The notes beneath the pieces were generated by a model, which was not told the DNA's origin, did not search any database, and saw nothing but the letters and a program-made list of their open reading frames with translations. Source: Moniliella sp. 'wahieum' (lineage: Eukaryota). Taken from it: 64,000 nucleotides of DNA. Position numbers and translations under genes: made by a program. Shown here in pieces: positions 9,640-62,224 of the stretch. The first letter of the stretch is position 1. Each line of letters begins with the position of its first letter. The DNA lies in the NCBI GenBank assembly GCA_003971905.1, contig RSEE01000020.1, forward strand, positions 248,001 to 312,000, in the 5' to 3' direction.

Positions 9640-11058
9640 GGCCGGCAGGGATGCGGATGGAAGCCTGCCAGATGGGCAGCCGTCGGCCAGGTGGAGGCGC
9701 GGGCGAGCGGGGTAGAGGCCTCCTTCGGCCACGTCACACATCGGTGCAAATGAGGCACGGGGTCTGGCGCCGAACCCTACCTGTGGAGCACCACCTGATG
9801 TACCTATCAATATGCCTGTAGTGCTCGCCCAGCGCCGAGATACCGCCACAGACCCCTTCTCCTACACCACCGTCTGAACCCGCTGACATACACACTCGGC
9901 CGTCACTGCCACTACCGCTTCCGCTTCCCCCAATGTGCCCTCGTCCTTCCTCTGGACTTGGTGTGGATCTAATACGCCCGGCGCAGCGCCGCGCTGCTTG
10001 CACAAAAGGGGCTGTCCTCGTCCCTCTTCCCACGATATGCACTGTGGACTATGTGTGCTGGGAACTTAATCCACCCTGTTCCCCATCAAGGCGGTCTGAA
10101 AGGCCCTGCAGAAGCACCCCAATGTTGCGGACAAGGTGAACCATCCAATTGGATTCCAGGACTGAGCTGGAAAGATTCTCCCAACAGAACCTCAAACGCT
10201 CAGCGCTCACCACCTCCTGACTTGCCTGAGACAAGTATACATTCTCCCTGTTTCGCTCTCTACTGTGATTTGAGGCTGAGGCCTGAAGGTGTGCAGATGC
10301 CACGCCTATTAGAGTTGCGAACCAACAGGCTTGTGAAAGTGTCGACTATCGAATACCTGGAACAAACATTTGCGTTTCCTCCGTCTCACTAGGAGAAAGA
10401 CCAATACCTTCTTGTTGACTATTAGTCACCGTCACTAGTCACTAATAGAACCGCCACAGGGGACACACAGCTCCGAGTACTAAGTACTAAGTACTAAGCC
10501 CTGTCTTTAACTTTGGTTGATATGGCTGTGCATAAGTCTGAGACGCGAAAACACGGGCGCGTCTCCCACATATAGAGGAGAGTCGAGGAGCGAATGCGGC
10601 TTAGGCTGGCCCAGTAGCGAGTGCCAACTATTGTCTGGAGCGTCACATGCGTCACAGCCTCAAGCGAGAAGCACGCGCACAGGCTTCCCGCTTCTCCCCA
10701 GTTGCTAGTTACTATTTACACCGGCACTCATCACACGCATCTTGCGCCGTGCTGGGCGACGCGAATTTCTCCCAGCACAATCCATCCCTCGTCAGCGTCA
10801 CCGCCAACCCTCTCTTCCCGGTATGTATGAGCACACTATATAACAACGCCTATGACTGCCTATACACAAACGTCCACGACTCCGCCTGGGACAGTGGGTT
10901 TTGGATAAAAATCCCTAGGCCGAATGCTGTGACAGATCCTGCGCCTTGGGCACACAAAAATGGGATATTGCGATGTTCAAGCGCCTCCCTACTAAGGACT
11001 GTTGTTGATGGCATGCTCGGTGTTGCATCAATCCCACCAGTCCGTAAGCAAAAACGTA

Positions 11059-11146
11059 TGGACGAATAGGGAATCGAACCCCAGACCTCACACATGTTCG
11101 CAACAAAGATGCGAAGCGTGCGCTCTACCAACTGAGCTATCCGCCT
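11059..11146 (-). tRNA. tRNA-Ala(CGC) with short intron
   Basis: Reverse complement folds as (A/G)GGCGGA...TTCGTCCA with G3:U70, D arm GCTCAGTTGGTAGAGC, anticodon loop TT-CGC-A plus ~14-nt intron, and T arm GGGGTTCGATTCCCT. A T-run follows downstream. Confidence 0.9.
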
Positions 11147-12542
11147 ACTTGCGCATTTGCTGTGTGACGTTTACTCATACAACATCATACAAAGAAACGA
11201 GCATCATTAACCAACGCGTTTTCACTTGCGCCCCCTTTGGAGGTCGAGGTGGATCGACGCTCTCGTATGACAGCACGCCCAAACCCGCGAGTGTTCAGCT
11301 GAGCGAGATCACTGGTCACTTCTCAGCATGAGAAGATAAGGAGTCCCATTTGTCCTCCAGTAATGGAGCACGATAATAGAGAGGAAGATGAGGGCGGAAC
11401 AGATATACCGCAGGTGGTTACGGATAGGGGAAGTATATTCGAAGGAGGCATATGCACCAGAAGTGGCTGAGGACGGTGCCCAGTATATCCTTACACGATC
11501 GTTTTACCTCCGAAGGTTGAAGGACATCGAGCCAACGCCTAAGTCTCGAAGAAAAACATGGGTTGGGACAACTCCCTTGCTTTTCATAATCTTTTCTCGG
11601 TGAACAGTTGTGCGAAGGCGAAGAAGAGACTATAGCCGACGTGCAATGAGGCGCAATCATATATGGGACATCCTGCTTCACTGGCTGGGAGTGCCATTAT
11701 AGGGAGCTGATCACGAGCACAGGGGTGACCGGTTGACGACATTTCGAGTGGAAAGTGGGGTGTGAGGAGAGAAGGAAAGAGCAGAGGACAAGCAAATCCA
11801 GAGAATAGCCCAAAAGAAAGCGTAAGCAGGATGGACAAATATCAAAAACGTATTAATACAGAGAGTTTGTTGTCTAGGTAATTGGAACACAATAACTACT
11901 CTTGTTTTCCTTCATGACCCAAAATAGTGCATATTTGGCTATATGCTTAGTACTTATTGGCTCTCGCTCGTATCCCCCACCTCTTACACCTACATATCTC
12001 TGTGTACCCTTGTGTTGCAATGTTCGACAGCAAACATAACTTTGTATTTTAATAGCGTATAGTCTGTGGGACAGTATATTGATGAGAAAAGGCATCCTTG
12101 CTCACTAAGTACTAAAGAGTACCATTAGCTTTTGTGGTGTCACAAGTAATAGGTGTGAGTCCAAAAGATCCTACGAGGGTAATAAGGCCTAAGGGTCAAA
12201 AGGGACCGAAGGCGAGAAATCAAATGAAATGCTTTACCAAAACGTACCAAAAACATCATCCTCGGTGAGTTAATAAGCCGCGGTGATATATGATACCTAT
12301 ATACGAGTGTTTTGTTTGAGACCCCAAAAGCGACGAATCATCCACCCTAGTACGTATTCGCCTTGCCTAGAGGTGATGGGGGTGGCAGTGAGGAGTAGAT
12401 TGGGGGTGTTAAGTAGCGAGCTTCCTCTCCCACGGATGGATTTCCTTTTCAGTCGGGTTGTTCTAATGCATTGTCACTTCTGTTAGTTATTTAAATTGTC
12501 ATCAGTGTACGTATAATATTGTTCGTTGCGCAGTGATCCGCA

Positions 12543-12649
12543 GACACTTTAGGGCAGTGGTTACCCCGTTCGCCTGCTATGTGTAGCACCTTGCTCCAAG
12601 GGCCAGCGAATCCTCTCTGAGGGCGTGAGTTCGAATCTCACAGGTGTCG
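12543..12649 (+). tRNA. tRNA-Ser(GCT) with ~25-nt intron
   Basis: GACACTT/AGGTGTC-G acceptor stem, anticodon stem TTCGC/GCGAA around CT-GCT-A, long variable arm CCTCTCTGAGG, T arm GTGAGTTCGAATCTCAC, followed by a TTTTTT Pol III terminator. Confidence 0.92.
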
Positions 12650-13450
12650 TTTTTTGGTCCAGCTCCGGCCGTTCTTCCTGTTAGGATGAAGTATTGATGT
12701 TCAGTCTGAGAGCGAAATGTTGAGACCAAAGATTCTACATGAAAAGGGGCTTCATAAAGCTTGGCCCGGGAGTGTGCACAGCCTTGTTTCGTTGGTGGGT
12801 ATATATGGCAGTGTGACCGTTTGACAGACAGACGAGCCACTGGCGGTGGTGTGGTTTTTGATTCTTCGGCGGTGCATGTGGATTATCCAAAACCATCGAT
12901 ACAACATCAGTCCCTACTGTCGGCGAACAGGCGGAGATGGCCGTGGTGACCTTAAGTGCAACAGGTGTCAGCATGTCAGGTCCTCAAACTGAAGCTCCTG
13001 TTGAAGAGAGGGAGCAAGAGAGGGAGTATATTGACGCAGGACGCGGGACGTGGTGTGTATCCGTTTGTTCATAACTGACGGTTACCGGTTTTACCCTCCA
13101 ACACATTATTGCATGATCGACATGACCATGAGATCCGACGCGAAGGTGAACTTCACCTCCACACTACTTTGGTATGATTATTCCTATAGAACTTGCTGGT
13201 GCTTTCCTAGTTTCCACATTTGGCGTCGGTTCCGCCAGGCAATGAATGATTCAATCATTGATCTGAACGATCTGATCTCTGATCGGACAATCGTCTTCGC
13301 GATGATGAGCTTCACGCTTGAAGCTGGAGGCCTTGAAGCTTGAAGCTTGAAGCTCGAGGAAGCCTGAGGCCCTGAGGTGACTACTAAGCAACTTTGGGAC
13401 TATACTAGTCCCGGAGAGCTTCAAAAAGGCTTCTTTATCGATTACTAGAA

Positions 13451-13762
13451 GACCACCGGGCCTACGGCCCGGTCAGCTGGGGCTTCGCCCCAGCTTGGTG
13501 CTTGGTGTACCGTCGCCACCTTAGCCACCGTTCCCCCGTCGCCATCGTAGCCCCATAGCCACCATTCCACGCTGGAGGAATTTTATCACCCACATGTGCA
13601 TGGCTGAGCGCGGGGGGTGGGTTGCGGGGCTGCGGCCCGCGCAAACAACGCAAACAAATAGGTAAGCAACAAATAGGTAAGCATGACGTAAAGTAAAAAG
13701 GGGGTCTGCGTTATATAGCGTTCCCCCTGTCCCAGCCTTAAGCTCTGTCAATGATGTGGATT
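13451..13762 (+). mobile_element. Short non-autonomous element: double-hairpin head plus RLE-retroelement 3' tail (SINE/SIDE-like)
   Basis: Head gaccaccgggcctacggcccggtcagctggggcttcgccccagcttggt is shared with 48801 and 61347. Tail gcgttccccctgtcccagccttaagctctgtcaatg (13718-13753) is near-identical to ~16899-16933 and to the reverse complement of ~14408-14443. Confidence 0.7.
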
Positions 13763-14392
13763 CAAAAAGGGAGATCCTTTAAGCTTTGAGCACACGCACA
13801 GGTCACCCTGGTCACCGGACTTCTCACCAGCGATTGTTTGCGGACATGGTGAACACGTTCACTGAATGAGGTGACGTGAACGCGTCGGAAAGGACCCAGC
13901 AACATGTGGGATACACATGTGATGGGACGTGGGACGTCGCATGTGACATTGTGACTGGACGCTGGACACTGCCTGCGCTGCCAAGCGCTGTGAGGCCTGA
14001 GGCTCAGGCCTGAGGCTCAGGGACCAATAAAACGCGAAATTTTATGCACTCAAGAGCATCTTGATTCGGAACGCGAACGCTATTATACCGGTCGCGGGTA
14101 TATAAATCGCCCCCACACCGTGTAGTATTAGTCCTTGCTGTTTTTATAGAGAGCTTTGACCACACCGATGGTTATTAATGCGCTCAACCACACTTAACTC
14201 TCCTCCATCCCATCAGCCGCGTGCTGCCTCCTGCTCATCGACAAGCAGGTTCAGGCCTCCGGTTCTATATATGGGTTATAGCGCCAACAAGCAACACACG
14301 CTGGATAAGCAGGTTGGTTAGGTTCATCGAGTTCATCGTTTCTTTGTCTATGGTTTTGGACGTAATTGGAGGCAGCTGTCATGGCCCTCTTA

Positions 14393-14752
14393 TTGTGTGT
14401 GCATTCCATTGACAGAGCTTAAGGCTGGGACAGGGGGAACGCTACGTCTAAACCGAACCGTTCATCTTGCGGGGGTTACTTGGAGCGCCACCAGATTAAG
14501 GGACCAGGGGGATCGCAGGTATCAGGACCCTCCGGCTCACGCCATCCGGTCCGTACCCTAGGAAGCGCGTGTGGACACGGAGGAGGAACGTGGTTGACAT
14601 ACGAGCGAGGAACCATTTCCACTGAGACTTAGTAGCCAATCCTTCCAATGCGCAAACAACTTGCGCCGTCTTGGTGCCGTAGTATCCTCGCGTCGTCAAA
14701 AACCAGGGGGAAAACGGTTCTTGAGTGCGTCCTGTACTTGGCGTTCTTGTCG
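14393..14752 (-). mobile_element. 5'-truncated copy of RLE (CRE-like) non-LTR retroelement
   Basis: Near-identical inverted copy of ~16587-16945; encodes DKNAKY..TQEPFFPLVLTTRGYYGTKTA...QWKWFLARMSTTF. Confidence 0.8.
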
Positions 14753-16218: not shown

Positions 16219-16945
16219 TGGCCCTCCAGCGTAGTGCAATTTTGCACTAACCCGCACCCAGGCCAAGTTTGGTGCGTTGCATGAGGCAGTGCGGGAGCCC
16301 ATTCTCCAGCTCCTACGCTCCATCCCCGACACCCACGTCCACAACGAACCTATGGTGGAGGAAGAGGATGGGACGAGGCGCGGACGGAAGGCACAGCGCA
16401 CCGATTACCGCGTGATGGGGCCCGGAGCACTGGGAGGAACCGGAATGGAGGTAGACCACACGCTGCGCGACACGGGATCGCAGGAGGCGCAGAGCGCGTA
16501 CCGGCGGGTGGTGCATGAGAGCACAGCGTCGCCTTTGGAACGCCGGGAGAAGGAACTGCTTCGGCTGCTTGAACAAGCAGAATGCGACAAGAACGCCAAG
16601 TACCAGGGACGCACTCAAGAACCGTTTTTCCCCCTGGTTTTGACGACGCGAGGATACTATGGCACCAAAACGGCGGGCAAGTTTTTGCGCATTGGAAGGA
16701 GTTGGCTACTAAGTCTCAGTGGAAATGGTTCCTCGCTCGTATGTCAACCACGTTCCTCCGTGTCCACACGCGCTTCCTAGGGTACGGGACCGGATGGCGA
16801 GAGCCGGAGGGTCCCGATATCCTGGCAATCCCCCTGGTTCCTTGACCTTAGTGGCGCTTCCAAACAACCCCCAAGATGAACGGTTCGGTTTAGACGTAGC
16901 GTTCCCCCTGTCCAGCCTTAAGCTCTGTCAATGGAATGCACACAC
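16219..16945 (+). mobile_element. 5'-truncated non-LTR retrotransposon, restriction-like endonuclease (RLE) C-terminus plus 3' UTR (CRE-clade-like)
   Basis: ORF 16277-16780: LHEAVR..VHNEP..RTDYRV..EVDHT..AECDKNAKY..PFFPLVLTTRG, a PD-(D/E)xK RLE motif order. C-terminus continues in a shifted frame (WKWFLARMSTTFLR). Three copies in the window share this 3' end with different 5' ends. Confidence 0.78.
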
Positions 16946-19111
16946 TATAGTGTTGGAGGGTGGTTATGCAATGGTCTAAGCCAACCAACACCAAATACAA
17001 CACTTATACCGTGAGGCACACTAAGCAACCAGTCACTACCGGGCCTGGCCTGCCTGGCCGCAGAAGGAAAGACAGAAGTCAGAAAATAGTGGAGCTCCTA
17101 GGTCTGAGGAGGGGCTAAGCACGCTGCCGTTGAAGGGACCATGGCGCCTTGCCCAGCAAACGCAAGACCACAGGCCACACTCTGTGACTTAACAATGAAC
17201 ACATCATGCCGATCACATGTGTCCTGCGTCCCTTGTCCACCGTGTCAGACACCAACATGCAACAAGGCCTGGGTGCAGTACAACATATTGGACCCGTATC
17301 ATATACTAGAGCTATCGGCGCTACTGACGCTCAGCAAAACTCCGAGCCACGAACAGACAACAAAGCGCTGAGCCATAGGGGCACAGGGACCACCCTGGAC
17401 CACCCTGGATCACCCCAGACTATATACTTTACATAGTGAGTGAGTCTTAGCGTTCAGGCGCTCAGTAAAAGGTTGAGCGTTGAGCTGTAGGCTAGGCTCA
17501 GGCCCTCAACAGGCGCTGAAGCGCTGAAGCTGGCTCAAGCGCTCAAGCTTCCAGCTTCAAGTCGGTCCGCCATCCGCATCCTATACGCCAGAGCACGGCC
17601 GCTCCCTTCAGGCCACAGGGCCTCATCCATGATCATCGACTATCCGCAACCACCGCGGCTTGATTCGCCATAGGCGCTGTGACCGTGACGTGTGATGCAT
17701 GATGCGCGACGCATGACATATGCCCCCAATGGCCCTTTCTGACGCGTAGTATATGGCCTAGGCGCTGGTGGCCCCGGTCTACGCCCATGGTGAGTGGACG
17801 AGGTCGAGTGGGGTATTGGGATCCAAGATCGATCTGAGAGGCAATCGAAATGATTAACGACCCCTGGAGGTTGGGGGGGGGGGGCTAGGCCTGAATCTCT
17901 GGCCTCACGCGGACCGTCACGTTCAGCCTTATAGGCTTTAGGCCCCTTAAGCCGTAGACCCCTTAGACGCTTAGGTCTTAGGCTCCTGGATCGTGAATTG
18001 CGTGGCAGGGGAGGGTAGCACAGGCGCGCGCAGTGGCAGGTTTAAGCACGTCCGCGTGTTGAGTGCATTGATTATTGAGCACAAGCACCGCATGTGTTGG
18101 GTACTGAGTTTTTCCTCGGTGGACCCGGGCGAGTACGAAGGACAGGGTGCAGCGGCGTGCGCGTCCCAGGGGAAACGTCACACGTCACACGTCACATGTC
18201 ACACGTCGTTGCATCACGTGTCACATGTCACATTGAATATTGAATGTCTAGCGTGATACGATACAAGCTGCCTGCGGCATATGTTGCTGCATGTGCCCAT
18301 CCATGCGTCCGGCGCTCACGCACCGCTAAAATACACACGCCCATTCGGCTCCCGACCCGCGACCCCTCCTGTTCCCCACCTCCCTCTGCCCTTTGATTGG
18401 CTCTTGCTCGTGGCCTGGCTTCCTGCTACCACCACCACCCTTCCCCGTCGCCCAATCTTTCGCAACCAGACGCCTCCCGTGCCTATATCCGAGCGCTAGT
18501 CTCGACTTCCGCCTCCGGCCCGAATTTCCAATTGCAGCCACCAGCAGCGGCACGCAAGAGTCTCCTCCTTTGCCTACGAGCTGCCGCGGCCTGTCCTTCT
18601 TTCGGTCCGTTGCCGGTTCCTTGGCGTTGCCCATATTGCACTTGCTCGCCGGCACTTGCACTTCCTCCCGCTCAGCGCTCACTCACTCGTCACGGCGCCC
18701 CTCTCCACGTCGCGCACTCCCTACTGTTGTTATTCGACTTCCAGGGCCCATTTCTGCTCAGCCTGAGCGCTCACCCTTTCTGCTCACGACACGCCGTATC
18801 TCCGTCGCGCCACCTAAACTGTGCGCTACCCGCGGTTACCACTACTAGTCGCCCAGTCCCATCGCCCTTTGCCGGCCATACTAAGTAAGGTTGCGACTGA
18901 GCCCACCTTGTTATCCCGTGGGCCCCACACACCTCACCCGCCTCTTCCCTGTGTCCGAATCAAACTATATCGTTGCTCATTCCATCTCGCGCCTGCAACC
19001 ACGCCCGCGCCCACATTTACGCACCTGACCACGACCACGACCACGTCCACGACTACACTCACGCCGACCCCACCTCACCCTTCTCGCCCCCTCTCCGTTG
19101 TTCTTTAAACC

Positions 19112-37068: not shown

Positions 37069-37155
37069 CTCTCCGACCGGGAATCGAACCCGGGTCTCGT
37101 CCGGACGTCCAGATCAATGACAGGGACGTGTCATAGCCACTAAACTATCGGGAGA
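37069..37155 (-). tRNA. tRNA-Asp(GTC) with short intron
   Basis: Reverse complement TCTCC(C)GATAGTTTAGTGGCTATGACACGTCC-CT-GTC-A[intron]CGGACG...CCGGGTTCGATTCCCGG-TCGGAGAG, with a T-run downstream. Confidence 0.9.
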
Positions 37156-48257: not shown

Positions 48258-48800
48258 TTACACGTACCTTAGGTCCTTCTTCAGATCCTGGGTGAACCGA
48301 CCGGGTGTAGAGACGAGGGAAAGACCCTTTAGTTTGGGTGGCTGCCTGCATGCAAAAACTGCAGCTTAGACTCTCCGAGACAGGAGCCCCGTACCTAGGT
48401 CGTCAGACTAACAGAAGAGGTCCAGGAGCTCCGGGGTAACGCTGTTCCCGGTGGCGTTACCACATTCGACGCGCTGTGTAGTAAGCGGAATCAGACGGAG
48501 TCCTAAGGACGAGCAAGCGCTGTAAGTGCCTCATGCCAGGTATAGTACAAACAAAAACCCCGCCGGCCAGTCTTGGGCCCCGGGGTTTCTCTTCAGGGTT
48601 GGTCGCCCAAATGGACATCGCAGTATGAAACCGATACCCCTCCGGCCATGTTATTGACCTTTCCCACAAAAGTCAAAAAAAATGCTGCGTCCTTTTCTTT
48701 ATTGGTTGGAGATTCATGCTGTTGTTGATGGCCAACGCACCTTGACAAAAACATCATTTTCCCTCCGGCTATTTAGTAGTTGCAATAACAACAACGAGGA

Positions 48801-48955
48801 GACCACCGGGCCTACGGCTCGGTCAGCTGGGGCTTCGCCCCAGCTTGGTACTCGGTCGCCACCTTAGCCACCGTTCTCCCGGCTCACCATCGCTACCGGA
48901 GCCAACGTTCCACGCTGGAACCCTTCCACGCTGGAAAGTCGAAATAATATCACCG
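48801..48955 (+). mobile_element. Double-hairpin head, second copy
   Basis: Similar to 13451-13590 over ~140 bp (gaccaccgggcctacggctcggtcagctggggcttcgccccagcttggt...cgccaccttagccaccgtt...ttccacgctgga). Confidence 0.75.
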
Positions 48956-50244
48956 ATACTCGCTGGCAGTGGGTGGCTGGGAACGTGGCACGGGGCAAGC
49001 TGATGTAAAAGTTCGAAGCGATTCAATTTTGCGTATTAACAACAATACTAGATACTAGATAGCAGGGCCGCAGTAGTTCCAACTGGCTCCATCTTGGTTC
49101 TCTCATCTCTCAGTTTGTTTTCCGCGTCAAGATCTTGTCTTTAGCTCGGTGACACGACGAGCACCCACACCTATTTGGACGGTGTATGCCTACCCTTCCC
49201 TCCTTATAGCACAGAAGATGAGCATGACAGGAGTGGGGTCAGCAAAGCCGCTGCATGGCGTTTCGCCCCGTCAGCACAGCGGAGATGAAGGGGCAAAAAG
49301 AAACGCATGTTATAGAGACCAATGATACAAAACTGCCACACAGAGCCTCACGGCCCCGTAACAGAAGATGGATGTGGGAGCTACTAAACTGCTATGGTGT
49401 GTCCGGCCCCACCTCCACCTCTCACCGGGTTTGGTCTACGAAAGTACTAGAGCTCTCCCTCGTGCTTTATCGTTGCTTGTTCTCGCTCGAGCCCCATCGT
49501 TAACAGGCAGGGTAGCTTGGCTTCGATTGGGTGTTAGTAGTGGCAAACCGAAGAAGGGAATACACAACTGTCACAGTCGGGGCTAAGGCGAGGGAGACCA
49601 GGATCGGACTAGGCCAATAAGGGGTGTAGCAATCGTTCGTGTGGGGAAGAAGCATCAAGAACAGAGGACATGGTGCGAAGTGGAAGGAACAGGGAAGGAG
49701 CGAGAAGCTCGAGACGAAGAAATTGGAAATGGGAGCGAGATCAGCCAAACTATGACAACAACATCCATCCTCCCATCTGTATGTTGTACTATACTGGGCA
49801 ATGACCTTCATGTTATTTTTTTGTCACCTCACACCCCTACCAATGGTACTAGGTCATAGGAACACACTGGCGAATAGGTTCAATGATTGGGCATCCTATG
49901 TATAAAAGGGATTCTCAAAAGGTTTTGACTATACCGTTGGTTGATAATACAGTCTGCTGGAGTGTGTTGGTCTTCCTCTCAATTCGCATGTCCTCATCGA
50001 TCATCCCGTACGTCCCCTTTGTATATACAGCCTCTCTCCCTTTTCGCAATGTAACTCTTTTCATTTGTCCAGGCTGGCTAGCACAACTTTCGCTTGCTCT
50101 CTATTATGATCCAAAACCTCTACTTGCTGCCCCCCCTTGCATTCCTTCCAACCCAGCTAGTATAAGTATGCTCCCTTTGCATCTGTTCCATACACAGCGC
50201 TACAACTATCCCCCGTGTGCTTTTTCCTGCCATCTTCCTATACT

Positions 50245-50690
50245 GCAACCATATCATTGAGACAGAGCATAAGGGTGGGACAAAGGCACGCTGCGTCTAA
50301 ACCGATCCGTTCATCCTGCATGTGCTGCTTGAGAGCGCCAACCCTCCCGCTTAAGGTATATACCAGGGGGATCGCCAGGAGATCAGGACCCTCTGGTGCC
50401 CGTCATCCCTTCCCAACCCAAGGAAGCGCGTGTGGATACGGATGGACGTGGTAGACATCAAAGCGGTGAACCTTCTCCATTGGGAGCCAGTAGTCAAATC
50501 CTGCCAGTGCCCAAGCATCTTGCCCGCTGCCTTGGTGGCATAATATCCTCGCGTCGTCAAAACCAAGGGGGAAAACGGTTCTTGGGTGCACTCCTGGTAC
50601 TTGACGTTCTTGTCGCGTTCTGCTTGCTCCAGCAGCCGAAGCAGCTCCTTCTCCCGGCTTTCCAAAGGTCGCGCGGCGCTTCCGGTACCC
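50245..50690 (-). mobile_element. Diverged 5'-truncated RLE retroelement copy
   Basis: PLESREKELLRLLEQAERDKNVKYQECTQEPFSPLVLTTRGYYATKAAGK..QWRRF..MSTT. The 3' UTR is homologous (ggtttagacgcagcg..tgtcccacc..ctctgtctcaatgatatgg). Confidence 0.8.
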
Positions 50691-60722: not shown

Positions 60723-61346
60723 GGGGGGGGTTAGGGCAATGCAGACTGGTGGTGGCGAGGAGTAGAGGATATAAATATGAGAGGGATGAAGCAGCCGAGG
60801 TGCCACCACAGTCCATGTCCAGTAGAGCGCGGAGACCGGATCTGTTCTTTCCGGTTGCGGCGGAGTGCTGTGTCAAAAGTATAAGGGGTGCCCCAATCAA
60901 ATGTCATAGGAGCAGGAGGTGTATACGCATCAATCTCGCATCAATATGTCAGTCGCGGAGAGATCATTAATTATTCCCAACCCACTAATGGGCTGCAATA
61001 TGCATCCACTGCCGTCCCGCCCGCTTACGAGTGCTGCCGAGCGCCGGTGGGCGGCCCGCGTGATGCATGATGCATGATGCATGATGGGGCACTGCTATTG
61101 TTACGCTTCGCTGCTAGACGCACTAGCCCGGCTGTGCGGTTCGAAACAATCCTCAAAGCAAAAGCAGTCCTTCCCCGCCCCCCCGCACCCAACACTGAAT
61201 AATGTGGAGCCCCGCAATTCAATCCAGAAGGCTCCACACGCAAGGTTGCCATTACATTTACGCAACGAATTACGTGGACCCTACACAGCCAGTCGCGGCC
61301 AAGCCGGATGAGAAATCACCGGCCACCCCCGATGTACACGGAGGTG

Positions 61347-61457
61347 GACCACACCGGGCCTACGGCCCCCGGTCTGCTGGGGCTTCGCCCCAGTTTGGTG
61401 CTTGGTGTGGTGCTTGGTGCTTGGTCGCCACCTTAGTGTCAATGATATGGAGATGCA
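61347..61457 (+). mobile_element. Minimal ~110-bp element: double-hairpin head fused directly to the 3'-terminal motif
   Basis: gaccacaccgggcctacggcccccggtctgctggggcttcgccccagtttggtgcttggt...cgccaccttag followed by tgtcaatgatatggagatgca, the terminal motif also seen at ~13747 and ~50258 (minus). Confidence 0.65.
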
Positions 61458-62062
61458 AATAGAGATACACCACTACCATGTGTGCGACCAGGACATGGGT
61501 CCTGGACCGAGATGATGGGATGGTCAACATTCCATGTTGTGATGGTTGCGCGTTGGTTGTTGTGATAATGCGGACATTATTCATGCATGGGGTGGGTGCC
61601 CATCCTCTCGGTCTTGAAGATAATAGGCAACTTTTCTCGAAAGGAGAGGGAGCCATTGTCACCGAGATGGAAGTAATGCTGAAGGAGAGTACATACCATC
61701 ATCCCAAGTTACAGGGCACAGCCTGTCCTGAAATAGAAGCGCGAGCGATATCAGGGAAGATTGGGGACTGTGGGAACGGCGGGGTTTTGTTAGCGACGGG
61801 AGTATTGCGCACAAACAGGAGGGTATAATAGAGTAGCGCATGCTTTGTTGCCGGTATAGTGGCCTGCCTTCAGCCTTCTTTTTTAGGGGGCGTTGAGCGA
61901 GTGTGTGGCCTTTGGGGTGGAAGTGACCGTACCCTGGCTCGACAGAGCAAAAAGGTTGGACGGGGCTGCCTCCAACAAACACTGGAAACAGATGTGTATA
62001 TTATCCTCGGCATATAGTCCTCGGCCAAGGTACACTTATTGAATGCCAGTGTTCCTATGCAT

Positions 62063-62145
62063 GCCTCGCTATTTCAATCGGTAGAATTTGAGACTCTTAA
62101 AGAGTTGCCATCTCACGGTTGTGGGTTCGAGTCCCACGTGGGGCG
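62063..62145 (+). tRNA. tRNA-Lys(CTT) with ~10-nt intron
   Basis: GCCTCGC/GTGGGGC-G acceptor stem, TGAGA-CT-CTT-A[intron]A-TCTCA anticodon arm, GTGGGTTCGAGTCCCAC T arm, T-rich terminator. Confidence 0.88.
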
Positions 62146-62224
62146 TATTTTTATTCGCTGTCTATCGCACAACCTGTTGACTAAATTAAGCAGGATGAAG
62201 CCTCCCCAGATTCAAACACCTTCC

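What the first reader, a model, noticed from the sequence alone, without database searches (positions are those of the whole stretch)
13451..13640. T-shaped double hairpin with GNA triloops on the minus strand (three copies)
Seen in sequence: acca-[ccgggcc tac ggcccgg]-tc-[agctggggc ttc gccccagct]-tggt forms a three-way, T-shaped junction at 13451, 48801 and 61347. On the minus strand the loops read c-GTA-g and c-GAA-g. A third, imperfect hairpin at ~13624-13640 gives c-GCA-g. Established knowledge: C-GNA-G triloops are exceptionally stable in single-stranded DNA, and T-shaped hairpin termini self-prime replication in parvoviruses. Inference: the structure may act as ssDNA. The minus strand would be the first-strand cDNA of the associated retroelement family, so its 3' end could fold back to self-prime second-strand synthesis or protect the cDNA. 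That would be an unusual mechanism for an RLE retroelement.
Basis: partly seen in the sequence, partly recalled or inferred. Interest (0 to 1): 0.75.

Follow-up and report, generated by a model that had tools for sequence, protein, structure and literature searches.

The report
Double-hairpin head of a fungal retroposon
A 48-base double hairpin sits at the front of three short jumping-gene copies in a smut-related fungus, and two of them end in the tail of a larger retrotransposon; the structure is real and conserved, but nothing shows that it folds as DNA to prime its own copying.

Summary
A 48-nt module, ACCA / 7-bp hairpin / TC / 9-bp hairpin / TGGT, occurs three times (13452-13499, 48802-48849, 61348-61399), always on the + strand and never in shuffles. 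Its complement carries C-GTA-G and C-GAA-G loops. The "third hairpin" is no better than chance.

The head lies 7-22 nt inside the left end of short non-coding elements. In 2 of 3 copies the element ends, in the same orientation, with the 3' terminus of a retrotransposon whose ORF end carries restriction-like-endonuclease (RLE) motifs. Copy 1 is flanked by a 10-bp direct repeat. So the + strand is the RNA sense, and the head is the 5' module of a LINE-dependent short retroposon (SINE/SIDE-like).

The head is 48/49 identical between copies 1 and 2, whose bodies match in only 92/148 alignment columns. I read it as an RNA-level 5' module for stability or protein binding (about 0.4). An internal promoter is the main rival.

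The self-priming cDNA idea gains no support:
- a leader lies beyond the head;
- there are no snap-back junctions;
- no flip/flop orientation is seen;
- both stem substitutions give G-U on + and A-C on -.

With only 3-4 copies it is not excluded. No full-length element, genome or RNA data were available. Nothing similar was found in the scan's earlier notes on other DNA.

The parts
13452..13499 (+). Head, copy 1. ACCA closing strand; hairpin 1 (7 bp, loop TAC); TC linker; hairpin 2 (9 bp, loop TTC); TGGT closing strand.
   Evidence: 91 bits.
48802..48849 (+). Head, copy 2. One C>T in the 3' arm of hairpin 1, giving G-U on + and A-C on -.
   Evidence: (88.6 bits).
61348..61399 (+). Head, copy 3. 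Two 2-nt inserts, one A>T and one C>T (G-U on +). It has an alternative 8-bp outer stem with 61404-61411.
   Evidence: (76.9 bits).
13430..13760 (+). Short element, copy 1: 22-nt leader, head, non-coding body, and the last 38 nt of the LINE 3' end (13716-13753) plus about 7 nt. It is bracketed by TTCAAAAAGG at 13420-13429 and 13761-13770.
   Evidence: the 38-nt tail is 100% identical to 14407-14444 inverted and 97% to 16897-16933; the only direct repeat of 7 nt or more between the flanks; the body is unlike the LINE's last ~660 nt.
48795..48980 (+). Short element, copy 2: 7-nt leader CGAGGAG, head, and a body homologous to copy 1 up to about 48975. The 3' end is undefined. A 9-bp repeat TAACAACAA at 48786/49037 may mark it, but could be chance.
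   Evidence: homology; the repeat; my estimate of chance in the ~115 x 1400 position pairs compared is about 0.6; the 3' end is not significantly like the LINE tails: 94/300 and 284/300 shuffles score as high.
61340..61450 (+). Short element, copy 3: leader GGAGGTGG, head, four full GCTTGGT 7-mers plus partial units, CGCCACCTTAG, then directly the LINE terminus TGTCAATGATATGG. The join lies at a CCTTA(A)G microhomology with the LINE tail.
   Evidence: TCAATGAT[AG]TGG occurs 3 times in the window, all at element 3' ends.
13500..13512 (+). 7-mer GCTTGGT tandem run directly after the head. The first unit is shared with hairpin 2 and the closing stem. There are 2 units in copies 1 and 2, and four full units plus partial ones in copy 3 (to 61425).
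13624..13640 (-). It is weak and was not tested for conservation in copy 2.
   Evidence: z -1.9; 8-10 of 200 shuffles fold as well.
14407..14752 (-). Fragment A of the partner retroelement: the end of the ORF plus the 3' UTR, with the 3' terminus at 14407.
16250..16933 (+). Fragment B of the partner retroelement: the RLE part of the ORF (one frameshift) plus the 3' UTR, with the 3' terminus ...GCTCTGTCAATG at 16933.
   Evidence: 84% amino-acid identity to P0001; contigs of run X1 cover 16250-16982.
50249..50680 (-). Fragment C of the partner retroelement: the ORF end plus the 3' UTR, with the 3' terminus ...TCAATGATATGG at 50249.

Best explanation
What it is (about 0.75). The double hairpin is the conserved 5'-terminal module of a small family of short, non-coding retroposons (about 110-330 bp). 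These are copied by the machinery of an RLE-type non-LTR retrotransposon, and they carry that element's last 8-38 nt as their own 3' end. The + strand is the RNA sense. The element starts about 7 nt upstream of the head with a purine-rich leader (GAGGAG-like); copy 1 has about 15 extra nt.

How it works (about 0.4, inferred). The module acts in the RNA. Two GC-rich hairpins, loosely closed into a three-way junction, sit next to the 5' end. I propose that they give the template a compact, nuclease-resistant 5' end, a handle for the retrotransposon protein, or both. Only RNAs copied to their very end then yield daughters that keep the module.

This is the role that the HDV-like fold and the 5' protein-binding RNA play in R2. 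Here it would be done without a recognisable ribozyme.

Shown: the anatomy, orientation, conservation and fold predictions. Inferred: transcription of the + strand, the 5' end position and the function. The confidence given (0.4) is for the mechanism; the identity as the 5' module of a LINE-dependent retroposon is about 0.75.
For: - Orientation and linkage. The LINE terminus ...GCTCTGTCAATG lies about 90-100 nt after the ORF stop in fragments A, B and C. The same terminus follows the head on the same strand in copy 1 (38/38 nt identical to A) and in copy 3 (14 nt; TCAATGAT[AG]TGG occurs only 3 times in the window, all at element ends).
- Retroposition. A 10-bp direct repeat brackets head plus tail in copy 1. 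It is the only repeat of 7 nt or more between the flanks. By my estimate its chance is about 0.01.
- Copy 3 looks like a template-switch deletion at a CCTTA(A)G microhomology. This puts head and tail on one template.
- The partner is RLE-type. P0001 and window ORF B (84% identical) show, by eye, a C-x-C-x7-H-x3-C cluster (P0001 only; B is truncated inside it), K..KY and RG.[YF]. CCHC, K..KY and RG.W are named as R2 RLE-region motifs in PMC4838377 (passages read).
- Constraint. The head is 48/49 identical between copies 1 and 2, against 92/148 aligned columns in the body (Fisher p = 1e-7). Counting substitutions only, the figures are 48/49 against 92/109. A contig of run X1 covers the head with no base change listed and has three deletions just after it.
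- Fold. Both hairpins form in the MFE and centroid of the isolated heads and of the whole elements.
- Strand hint. 57/60 cells pair on + and 55/60 on -. Both stem substitutions are G-U on +.
- Precedent. Thermodynamically stable 5' modules raise the template function of R2, which suggests that 5' degradation is limiting (PMC11331408, abstract and passages). R2 SIDEs keep only the 5' module and the 3' end (PMC3414825, abstract). The first 77 nt of L1Tc/NARTc is a conserved 5' hallmark shared by the autonomous and non-autonomous elements (PMC3383444, abstract).
Against: - There is no RNA evidence at all.
- There are only 3 copies plus one foreign contig. 0 of 20 pairs show a compensatory change, and the shuffle controls are uninformative.
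- The G-U asymmetry rests on 2 events (one-sided p about 0.25).
- UAC and UUC triloops are not known stabilising RNA loops (recalled).
- The 4-bp closing stem is absent from the MFE of full-length copy 1.
- Copy 2 has no recognisable LINE tail, and its 9-bp repeat may be chance.
- Copy 3 has no flanking repeat of 7 nt or more.
- No full-length LINE was seen. Whether the head is the LINE's own 5' end (SIDE) or a foreign head (SINE-like) is therefore open. No RT domain was found in the window (0 of 137 ORFs scanned).
- The RLE assignment rests on motifs read by eye. Pfam, PDB sequence search and a failed model (pLDDT 36) gave nothing.
Confidence: 0.4

Rival explanations
1. Internal promoter in double-stranded DNA. 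The two perfect palindromes are sites for dimeric transcription factors that fire just upstream, so the promoter travels inside the transcript. This is what a non-LTR element without a host promoter needs.
For: - Strong conservation of the first ~55 nt relative to the body is what an internal promoter predicts.
- The inferred starts of copies 2 and 3 lie 7-8 nt upstream of the head.
- Pr77 of L1Tc/NARTc is such a 5' internal promoter (PMC3383444, abstract).
- Hairpin 1 contains inverted CGG/CCG triplets, and the start of hairpin 2 contains CAGCTG. Both are read from the sequence. That such motifs are typical fungal zinc-cluster and E-box sites is recalled.
Against: - Two adjacent perfect 7- and 9-bp palindromes with 3-nt centres, bracketed by ACCA/TGGT, look more like a folded strand than like factor sites.
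- Both stem substitutions preserve wobble pairing, which a protein site has no reason to do. This rests on n = 2.
- No Pol III-type head was found: Rfam gave nothing above chance in the three regions, and ARAGORN found no tRNA there.
- This rival is not exclusive of the RNA reading.
Confidence: 0.2
2. No present function. The palindromes are scars of reverse-transcriptase snap-back or template switching at the 5' end of an ancestral template, kept because all copies descend from one recent master.
For: - Perfect inverted repeats with minimal 3-nt turns are what snap-back synthesis creates. Snap-back junctions are a recognised class of R2 5' junctions (PMC11331408, Methods passage).
- Only 3-4 copies are known.
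- The 7-mer run next to the head varies freely in copy number.
Against: The head is 98% identical between two copies whose bodies match in only 62% of aligned columns. Uniform neutral decay or a single recent master cannot explain this. The two hairpins are unrelated in sequence, so two independent events would be needed.
Confidence: 0.12
3. The head acts in the minus-strand cDNA. Its 3' end folds through the two GNA-loop hairpins into a T-shaped junction that primes second-strand synthesis, protects the end, or presents a branched DNA to the resolvase-like endonuclease.
For: - Both loops are C-GNA-G on the minus strand in 3 of 3 copies. My estimate of the chance for two triloops on one strand is about 1/128, post hoc.
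- Hairpin 2 centres on GCGAAGC. That is a GCGNAGC mini-hairpin, a motif called extraordinarily stable (PMC13037366 and PMC3201870; only the abstract starts in the search listing were seen).
- The minus-strand DNA fold is significant (z -5.4 and -3.6).
- How the second strand arises is stated to be not understood (PMC13486585, Significance section).
- The R2 endonuclease was modelled on Holliday-junction resolvases and is proposed to handle branched intermediates (PMC4838377, Discussion passages).
Against: - 7-22 nt of leader would overhang the fold as an unpaired 3' flap.
- 0 of 3 copies have an inverted duplication at the 5' junction.
- 0 of 3 window copies show the inverted (flip) arm order that hairpin resolution would create.
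- Both stem substitutions give A-C mismatches on this strand.
- The closing stem is only 4 bp.
- A further body hairpin (TTCCA-CGC-TGGAA) and the weak third hairpin do not support a GNA rule.
- None of this is decisive with so few copies, most of which are dead.
Confidence: 0.07
4. The head belongs to an unrelated repeat that the RLE retrotransposon prefers as a target. The LINE tails behind it would be separate, heavily 5'-truncated insertions.
For: - RLE elements are often site-specific (recalled; R2 in PMC3414825).
- Copy 2 has a head but no recognisable tail.
- One X1 contig joins 13714 to 16808, that is, the same body position to a longer piece of LINE (table 5). Its shorter side is only 30 letters and the likeness threshold was 80%.
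Against: - The two tails join the head-bearing sequence at different points (13715/13716 and the equivalent of 13524), so the insertion is not site-specific.
- The sequence after the tails does not resume the head-bearing repeat (149/300, 104/300 and 50/300 shuffles score as high).
- The 10-bp direct repeat of copy 1 brackets head and tail together.
- Independent insertions of only 8-38 nt next to 2 of 3 heads are unlikely.
Confidence: 0.08
5. The head is part of a self-cleaving ribozyme (HDV-like, hammerhead or twister type) that trims a read-through transcript, as in R2, L1Tc or schistosome elements.
For: Ribozymes sit at the 5' ends of several non-LTR families (PMC3414825 and PMC3383444, abstracts; PMC8501958, abstract start in the listing). 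Copies 2 and 3 have similar short leaders.
Against: - Rfam 15, searched at E<=10 over the three regions, gave only chance-level hits to unrelated families (E 1.2-5.7, far below the gathering scores).
- The junction has 0, 2 and 0 unpaired nucleotides, which leaves no room for a hammerhead core.
- An HDV fit fails by hand. If hairpin 2 is P4, then P1 would have to be hairpin 1, which encloses only 3 nt where P2 and P3 must lie.
- Copy 1 carries 22 nt upstream of the head inside the direct repeats.
Confidence: 0.03

Closest known systems
R2 SIDEs (short internally deleted elements of R2, Drosophila; PMC3414825, abstract read)
   Same: A short non-coding unit made of a structured 5' module joined to the 3' end of an RLE-type LINE, propagated by that LINE. 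5' junctions are variable. Template-jump products occur.
   Different: The SIDE 5' module is an HDV-like ribozyme and the elements are rDNA site-specific. Here no ribozyme is detectable, the insertions are dispersed, and it is not known whether the head is the LINE's own 5' end.
LINE-dependent SINEs with a shared 3' tail (stringent type), including the EhSINE/EhLINE pair of Entamoeba, whose elements lack targeted insertion (PMC1635306; only the abstract start in the search listing was seen; that EhLINE is RLE-type is recalled)
   Same: The short element shares only its last tens of nucleotides with the LINE, is flanked by a target duplication (copy 1), and has a body unrelated to the LINE's 3' part.
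   Different: Classical SINE heads derive from tRNA, 7SL or 5S and carry Pol III boxes. This head resembles none of them.
Pr77/L1TcRz hallmark of trypanosomatid L1Tc/NARTc (PMC3383444, abstract read)
   Same: A conserved 5'-most block of about 50-80 nt that travels with the short elements; in NARTc it is shared with the autonomous L1Tc.
   Different: Pr77 is a proven promoter and HDV-like ribozyme of an APE-type LINE. Here the activity is untested, the fold is different, and the partner is RLE-type.
T-shaped inverted terminal repeats of parvoviruses/AAV (rolling-hairpin replication; PMC11575299, abstract start seen in a listing only; the anatomy is recalled)
   Same: Two small palindromes with 3-nt turns, side by side inside an outer stem, with a 1-2-nt linker at the junction.
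   Different: The outer stem is 4 bp rather than tens of bp. The fold is not at the extreme end of the unit. No flip/flop is seen. There is no second terminal copy and no Rep-type nickase. The element is retroposed, with a LINE tail.
GNA-loop DNA mini-hairpins, GCGNAGC (PMC13037366 and PMC3201870; abstract starts seen in the listing)
   Same: The minus strand of hairpin 2 contains GCGAAGC exactly. Hairpin 1 has C-GTA-G with the favourable C-G closing pair.
   Different: Those are properties of isolated oligonucleotides. Nothing here shows that the minus strand is ever single-stranded with this end free.

Membership tests
Parvovirus-type self-priming T-shaped terminal hairpin | Two small internal palindromes inside a long outer stem, forming a three-way junction | tested here: inconclusive
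   The two arms (7 and 9 bp) are present in 3 of 3 copies. The outer stem is only 4 bp, is absent from the MFE of full-length copy 1, and sits in another register in copy 3.
Parvovirus-type self-priming T-shaped terminal hairpin | The fold lies at the extreme 3' terminus of the single strand, so that the 3'-OH is paired | tested here: not met
   The leader between the inferred element start and the head is 22 nt (copy 1, bounded by the 10-bp direct repeat). It is about 7-8 nt in copies 2 and 3, on weaker grounds.
Parvovirus-type self-priming T-shaped terminal hairpin | Flip and flop orientations of the inner palindromes among copies | tested here: not met
   All 3 window copies have the same arm order relative to the body; the one X1 contig lies on the head without listed changes. 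The sample is small: the chance of this under 50:50 is about 0.25 for three copies.
Parvovirus-type self-priming T-shaped terminal hairpin | Self-primed extension and site-specific nicking (terminal resolution) | not testable with these tools
   This needs biochemistry.
SINE (LINE-dependent short retroposon) | Short, non-coding, with the 3' end shared with a partner LINE | tested here: met
   Copy 1: 38/38 nt identical to LINE fragment A. Copy 3: 14-nt terminus. Copy 2: not met. No Pfam family was found in the window ORFs that cover the head regions (e.g. 61363-61698, 61463-61825) among the 137 ORFs scanned.
SINE (LINE-dependent short retroposon) | Flanking target-site duplications | tested here: inconclusive
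   Copy 1 has 10 bp (my estimate of chance is about 0.01). Copy 2 has 9 bp, which may be chance. Copy 3 has none of 7 nt or more.
SINE (LINE-dependent short retroposon) | Head derived from a Pol III gene (tRNA, 7SL, 5S) with internal boxes | tested here: not met
   No Rfam family scored above chance in the three regions. ARAGORN found no tRNA there.
SIDE (internally deleted RLE LINE, as for R2) | The 5' end is identical to the 5' end of the autonomous element | not testable with these tools
   No full-length element is in the window. No genome is held. No related loci were found in public collections.
SIDE (internally deleted RLE LINE, as for R2) | The 5' module is an HDV-like self-cleaving ribozyme | tested here: not met
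   There was no Rfam match, and the hand fit to the P1-P4 order fails.
RLE-type non-LTR retrotransposon (partner element) | CCHC motif followed by a PD-(D/E)XK-type endonuclease region with K..KY and RG.W motifs (motif names from PMC4838377) | tested here: inconclusive
   By eye, P0001 shows C-x-C-x7-H-x3-C, K..KY and RG.F; window fragment B carries K..KY and RG.Y but is 5'-truncated inside the Cys-His cluster. No profile or structure support was obtained: Pfam 0, PDB phmmer 0, and an AF2 model with pLDDT 36.
RLE-type non-LTR retrotransposon (partner element) | Reverse-transcriptase domain upstream of the endonuclease | tested here: inconclusive
   No RT family was found in 137 window ORFs. 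All three fragments are 5'-truncated. An X1 loose end shows that the ORF continues upstream in another organism. The nearest Atlas cluster with a Pfam family carries zf-RVT on 42% of its members at score 0.90, which is only a lead.
GNA-triloop DNA mini-hairpin | 5'-C-GNA-G-3' loop with a C-G closing pair | tested here: met
   GTA and GAA on the minus strand in 3 of 3 copies, and GCGAAGC in hairpin 2. Whether the strand ever folds in vivo is not testable here.

The most novel reading that the evidence does not exclude
A dispersed (not site-specific) RLE retrotransposon lineage has no target homology with which to anchor the 3' end of its cDNA. It would solve 5'-junction formation with a built-in DNA fold. 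The minus-strand copy of the head snaps into a T-shaped three-way junction, held by two C-GNA-G mini-hairpins. That junction would either prime second-strand synthesis or give the resolvase-like endonuclease the branched substrate it needs to nick the second strand. This would be a parvovirus-like terminal hairpin working inside target-primed reverse transcription.
Probability: 0.07. Interest if true: 0.85.

Novelty: new variant of a known kind. Interest (0 to 1): 0.4.

Why it matters
Short retroposons that depend on RLE-type LINEs are rare, and I know of none described in basidiomycetes. The text searches listed no such family, but only listings were read and the library is incomplete.

A head that is neither a Pol III gene copy nor a recognisable ribozyme, yet is far better conserved than the rest of the element, points to a further solution to the 5'-end problem of non-LTR elements: how to keep a promoter, a defined end or a protein handle inside the transcript.

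The strand question is also worth settling. How the second strand is made is still described as not understood (PMC13486585, Significance section). This 48-nt module is small enough to test directly, both as RNA and as DNA.

Tried and rejected
- Public DNA collections: the head pattern gave 0 loci in metagenome contigs, 0 in genome contigs and 0 in viral contigs. P0001 gave no confirmed locus in metagenome contigs.
- Protein searches:
  - the fragment B ORF and P0001 against longer proteins gave 0 hits;
  - a translation across head copy 2 gave 0 hits;
  - the representative search gave 4 hits at E<=0.001, of which only P0001 is a true relative; the other three are repeat proteins;
  - P0001 is a single 279-aa product from one 1174-bp metagenome contig.
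- Structure: the AF2 model of P0001 had pLDDT 36.1, so no fold search was made. PDB phmmer gave 0 hits. The Atlas gave only unnamed clusters and a weak zf-RVT lead.
- Sequencing runs: no RNA holder is listed. The only holder is a food-metagenome run with 0.11 of the words. Runs X2 and X3 laid nothing. The X1 joint 13714>16808 has a 30-letter side at 80% likeness, so I give it little weight.
- Rfam: no family at gathering score except four tRNAs elsewhere in the window. Nothing scored above chance near the heads.
- My first impression that the 3' end of copy 2 is a diverged LINE tail did not survive shuffling (43/300, 94/300 and 284/300 shuffles score as high).
- The idea that the sequence behind the tails resumes the head-bearing repeat also failed.
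- The body of the short elements is not derived from the last ~660 nt of the LINE (scores at or below the shuffle means).
- Helitron reading: on the minus strand copy 1 reads hairpin, then 7 nt, then CTAG. Copies 2 and 3 do not end this way, and the LINE tail and direct repeat argue for retroposition.
- Earlier notes of the scan hold nothing on this element.
Full report
**Setting.** The window is eukaryotic. It has four tRNA genes, all longer than a standard tRNA (83-107 nt against about 72), which suggests introns, and ordinary fungal-type genes such as a kinase, an AMP-binding enzyme, an amino-acid permease and Efg1. Earlier notes of this scan on other pieces of the same genome call it a smut-related basidiomycete (not checked here). 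No whole genome is held, so everything below rests on 64 kb plus one foreign contig.

**The observation.** In copy 1 it reads as follows:
- ACCA at 13452-13455;
- hairpin 1, CCGGGCC/TAC/GGCCCGG, to 13472;
- the linker TC;
- hairpin 2, AGCTGGGGC/TTC/GCCCCAGCT, to 13495;
- TGGT to 13499.

Copy 2 (48802-48849) differs by one C>T. Copy 3 (61348-61399) has two 2-nt inserts and two substitutions.

A 45-nt pattern with up to 3 mismatches hit copies 1 and 2 and nothing in 100 shuffles. A covariance model run without filters over both strands found the three copies at 91, 88.6 and 76.9 bits. Apart from their own reverse strands, the next match scored 16.6 bits and is unrelated when read.

The three-way fold is the MFE and centroid for copies 1 and 2, as RNA and as DNA, on both strands (z -3.6 to -5.4; 0 of 200 shuffles as good). 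In copy 3 only the two hairpins fold (z -1.2 to -1.9). Copy 3 has a different, perfect 8-bp outer pairing.

Within whole-element RNAs the two hairpins always form. The 4-bp closing stem forms in copy 2 but not in copy 1.

The minus-strand loops are C-GTA-G and C-GAA-G in all copies. The third hairpin at 13624-13640 is not better than chance. A further body hairpin, TTCCA-CGC-TGGAA, has no GNA loop on either strand.

**What the head belongs to.** All three copies share a sharp left boundary and variable lengths of similarity to the right: 13444-13576 with 48794-48919 at 82%, and only 57 nt with copy 3.

A second repeat family lies at 14407-14752 (-), about 16250-16933 (+) and 50249-50680 (-). 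It is the end of an ORF plus about 90-100 nt of 3' UTR, ending in ...GCTCTGTCAATG.

The only real relative among 1.84 billion representatives is P0001, a 279-aa metagenomic fragment. It is 84% identical to fragment B. By eye, P0001 shows a C-x-C-x7-H-x3-C cluster, K..KY and RG.F; fragment B keeps K..KY and RG.Y but is truncated inside the Cys-His cluster. CCHC, K..KY and RG.W are named as motifs of the R2 endonuclease region in PMC4838377 (passages read). Profile and structure methods gave nothing, and there is no RT domain in the window (0 of 137 ORFs). "RLE-type LINE" is therefore likely but not proven.

**The link.** The 3' terminus of that LINE follows the head on the same strand in two of three copies.
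- In copy 1 the last 38 nt (13716-13753) are identical to fragment A.
- In copy 3 the string TGTCAATGATATGG follows directly after CGCCACCTTAG. TCAATGAT[AG]TGG occurs only three times in the window, each time at an element's 3' end. The join sits at a CCTTA(A)G microhomology with the LINE tail. That is the mark of a template switch or internal deletion on one template.
- Copy 1 is bracketed by TTCAAAAAGG at 13420 and 13761. This is the only direct repeat of 7 nt or more between its flanks.

The body between head and tail is unlike the LINE's last ~660 nt. The DNA behind the tails does not resume the head-bearing sequence. This argues against the idea that the head is a separate repeat into which LINEs insert.

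Copy 2 is the weak point. It has the head and about 125-170 nt of homologous body but no significant tail, and its 9-bp flanking repeat could be chance.

The unit is therefore a short, non-coding, LINE-dependent retroposon with the head at its 5' end. It is preceded by 7-8 nt of purine-rich leader in copies 2 and 3 and by 22 nt in copy 1.

**Constraint.** Between copies 1 and 2 the head is 48/49 identical, while the next ~130 nt match in 92 of 148 aligned columns (Fisher p = 1e-7). Counting substitutions only, the figures are 48/49 against 92/109. Decay after insertion should be even along a copy, so the difference means that the masters diverged in the body but not in the head.

One contig of a food-metagenome run also covers the head. 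It has no listed base change there and three small deletions right after it.

There is no covariation. Of 20 pairs, 0 have changes on both sides. 57/60 cells pair on the + strand and 55/60 on the - strand. The difference is two C>T changes that give G-U on + and A-C on -. Two events are a hint, not a test.

**Mechanism.** No known RNA family fits. Rfam at E<=10 gave only chance hits. The junction has no unpaired core for a hammerhead. The order of helices cannot be mapped onto an HDV-like fold.

The head is not a tRNA, 7SL or 5S derivative, so the unit is not a classical SINE. Whether it is a SIDE depends on the unseen 5' end of the LINE.

I favour an RNA-level 5' module (about 0.4). In R2-based insertion, thermodynamically stable 5' folds raise template function, and the authors suggest that degradation from the 5' end is limiting (PMC11331408, abstract and passages). 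R2 RNA also has a 5' protein-binding motif that drives second-strand cleavage (PMC4838377, passages). R2 SIDEs and NARTc keep just such 5' modules.

An internal promoter is the main rival (0.2) and is compatible with the RNA role, as in Pr77.

It has one real point in its favour. Both loops are GNA with C-G closure on the minus strand, and hairpin 2 contains GCGAAGC, the classic mini-hairpin (only the abstract starts in the listing were seen). UAC and UUC are, to my knowledge, nothing special in RNA.

Against it:
- the leader would leave an unpaired 3' flap;
- no copy has a snap-back type inverted junction;
- all three window copies have one arm order;
- both stem changes hurt the minus strand;
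- the outer stem is only 4 bp.

I put it at about 0.07. Because second-strand synthesis is still called not understood (PMC13486585, Significance section), it remains worth a direct test.

**Limits.** There are three copies, most likely dead ones. There is no full-length element, no genome and no RNA data. The RLE call rests on motifs read by eye. Supplements of the cited papers were not opened. For each paper I say in the evidence fields how much of it I saw.

Noticed in passing
window 13496-13512, 48846-48859, 61396-61425: The 7-mer GCTTGGT overlaps the end of hairpin 2 and the closing stem. It is tandemly repeated 2 times in copies 1 and 2 and four full times, plus partial units, in copy 3. 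This creates alternative registers for the outer stem.
   Followed up: partly
window 13307-13360: A run of 7-bp units (AGCTTGA/GCTTGAA) with palindromic character lies just upstream of copy 1. It resembles the 7-base lattices that earlier notes describe elsewhere in this genome.
   Followed up: no
window 13716-13753 and 14407-14444: A perfect 38-bp inverted repeat. It is the LINE tail of short element copy 1 facing the tail of LINE fragment A, 653 bp away. It could be taken for the ends of a DNA transposon.
   Followed up: partly
window 14391-14752 and 16949-16520: LINE fragments A and B are inverted copies. They are 91.7% identical over the 266-column match and about 78% over the longer 445-column match, and share 12 nt beyond the terminus (GAATGCACACAC). 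This suggests either an inverted segmental duplication or a subfamily with a different 3' end.
   Followed up: partly
window 13754-13775, 61445-61466, 50249-50225 (minus strand), 14406-14385 (minus strand): The DNA just after the LINE termini shares a loose pattern: ATRTGG, then CA followed by an A/T-rich run, then AG. This may be a weak target preference or a variable 3' extension.
   Followed up: partly
window 11058-11147, 12543-12649, 37069-37155, 62062-62146: Four tRNA genes, all longer than a standard tRNA; the one at 12543 was found by Rfam only. Two of the three heads lie within about 0.8 kb of a tRNA gene. My estimate of the chance is about 0.05.
   Followed up: no
window 13651-13684 and 48907-48939: Small tandem duplications inside the short elements: a 14-nt unit (aacaaataggtaagc-like) x2 in copy 1, and the TTCCACGCTGGAA hairpin x2 in copy 2.
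   Followed up: no
run X1 laid on window 16250-16982: A food-metagenome run holds many short, mutually divergent contigs of the LINE's RLE region, and a loose end that continues the ORF upstream into the Cys-His motif. A relative of this fungus with a multi-copy, possibly longer, version of the element therefore exists in public data.
   Followed up: partly
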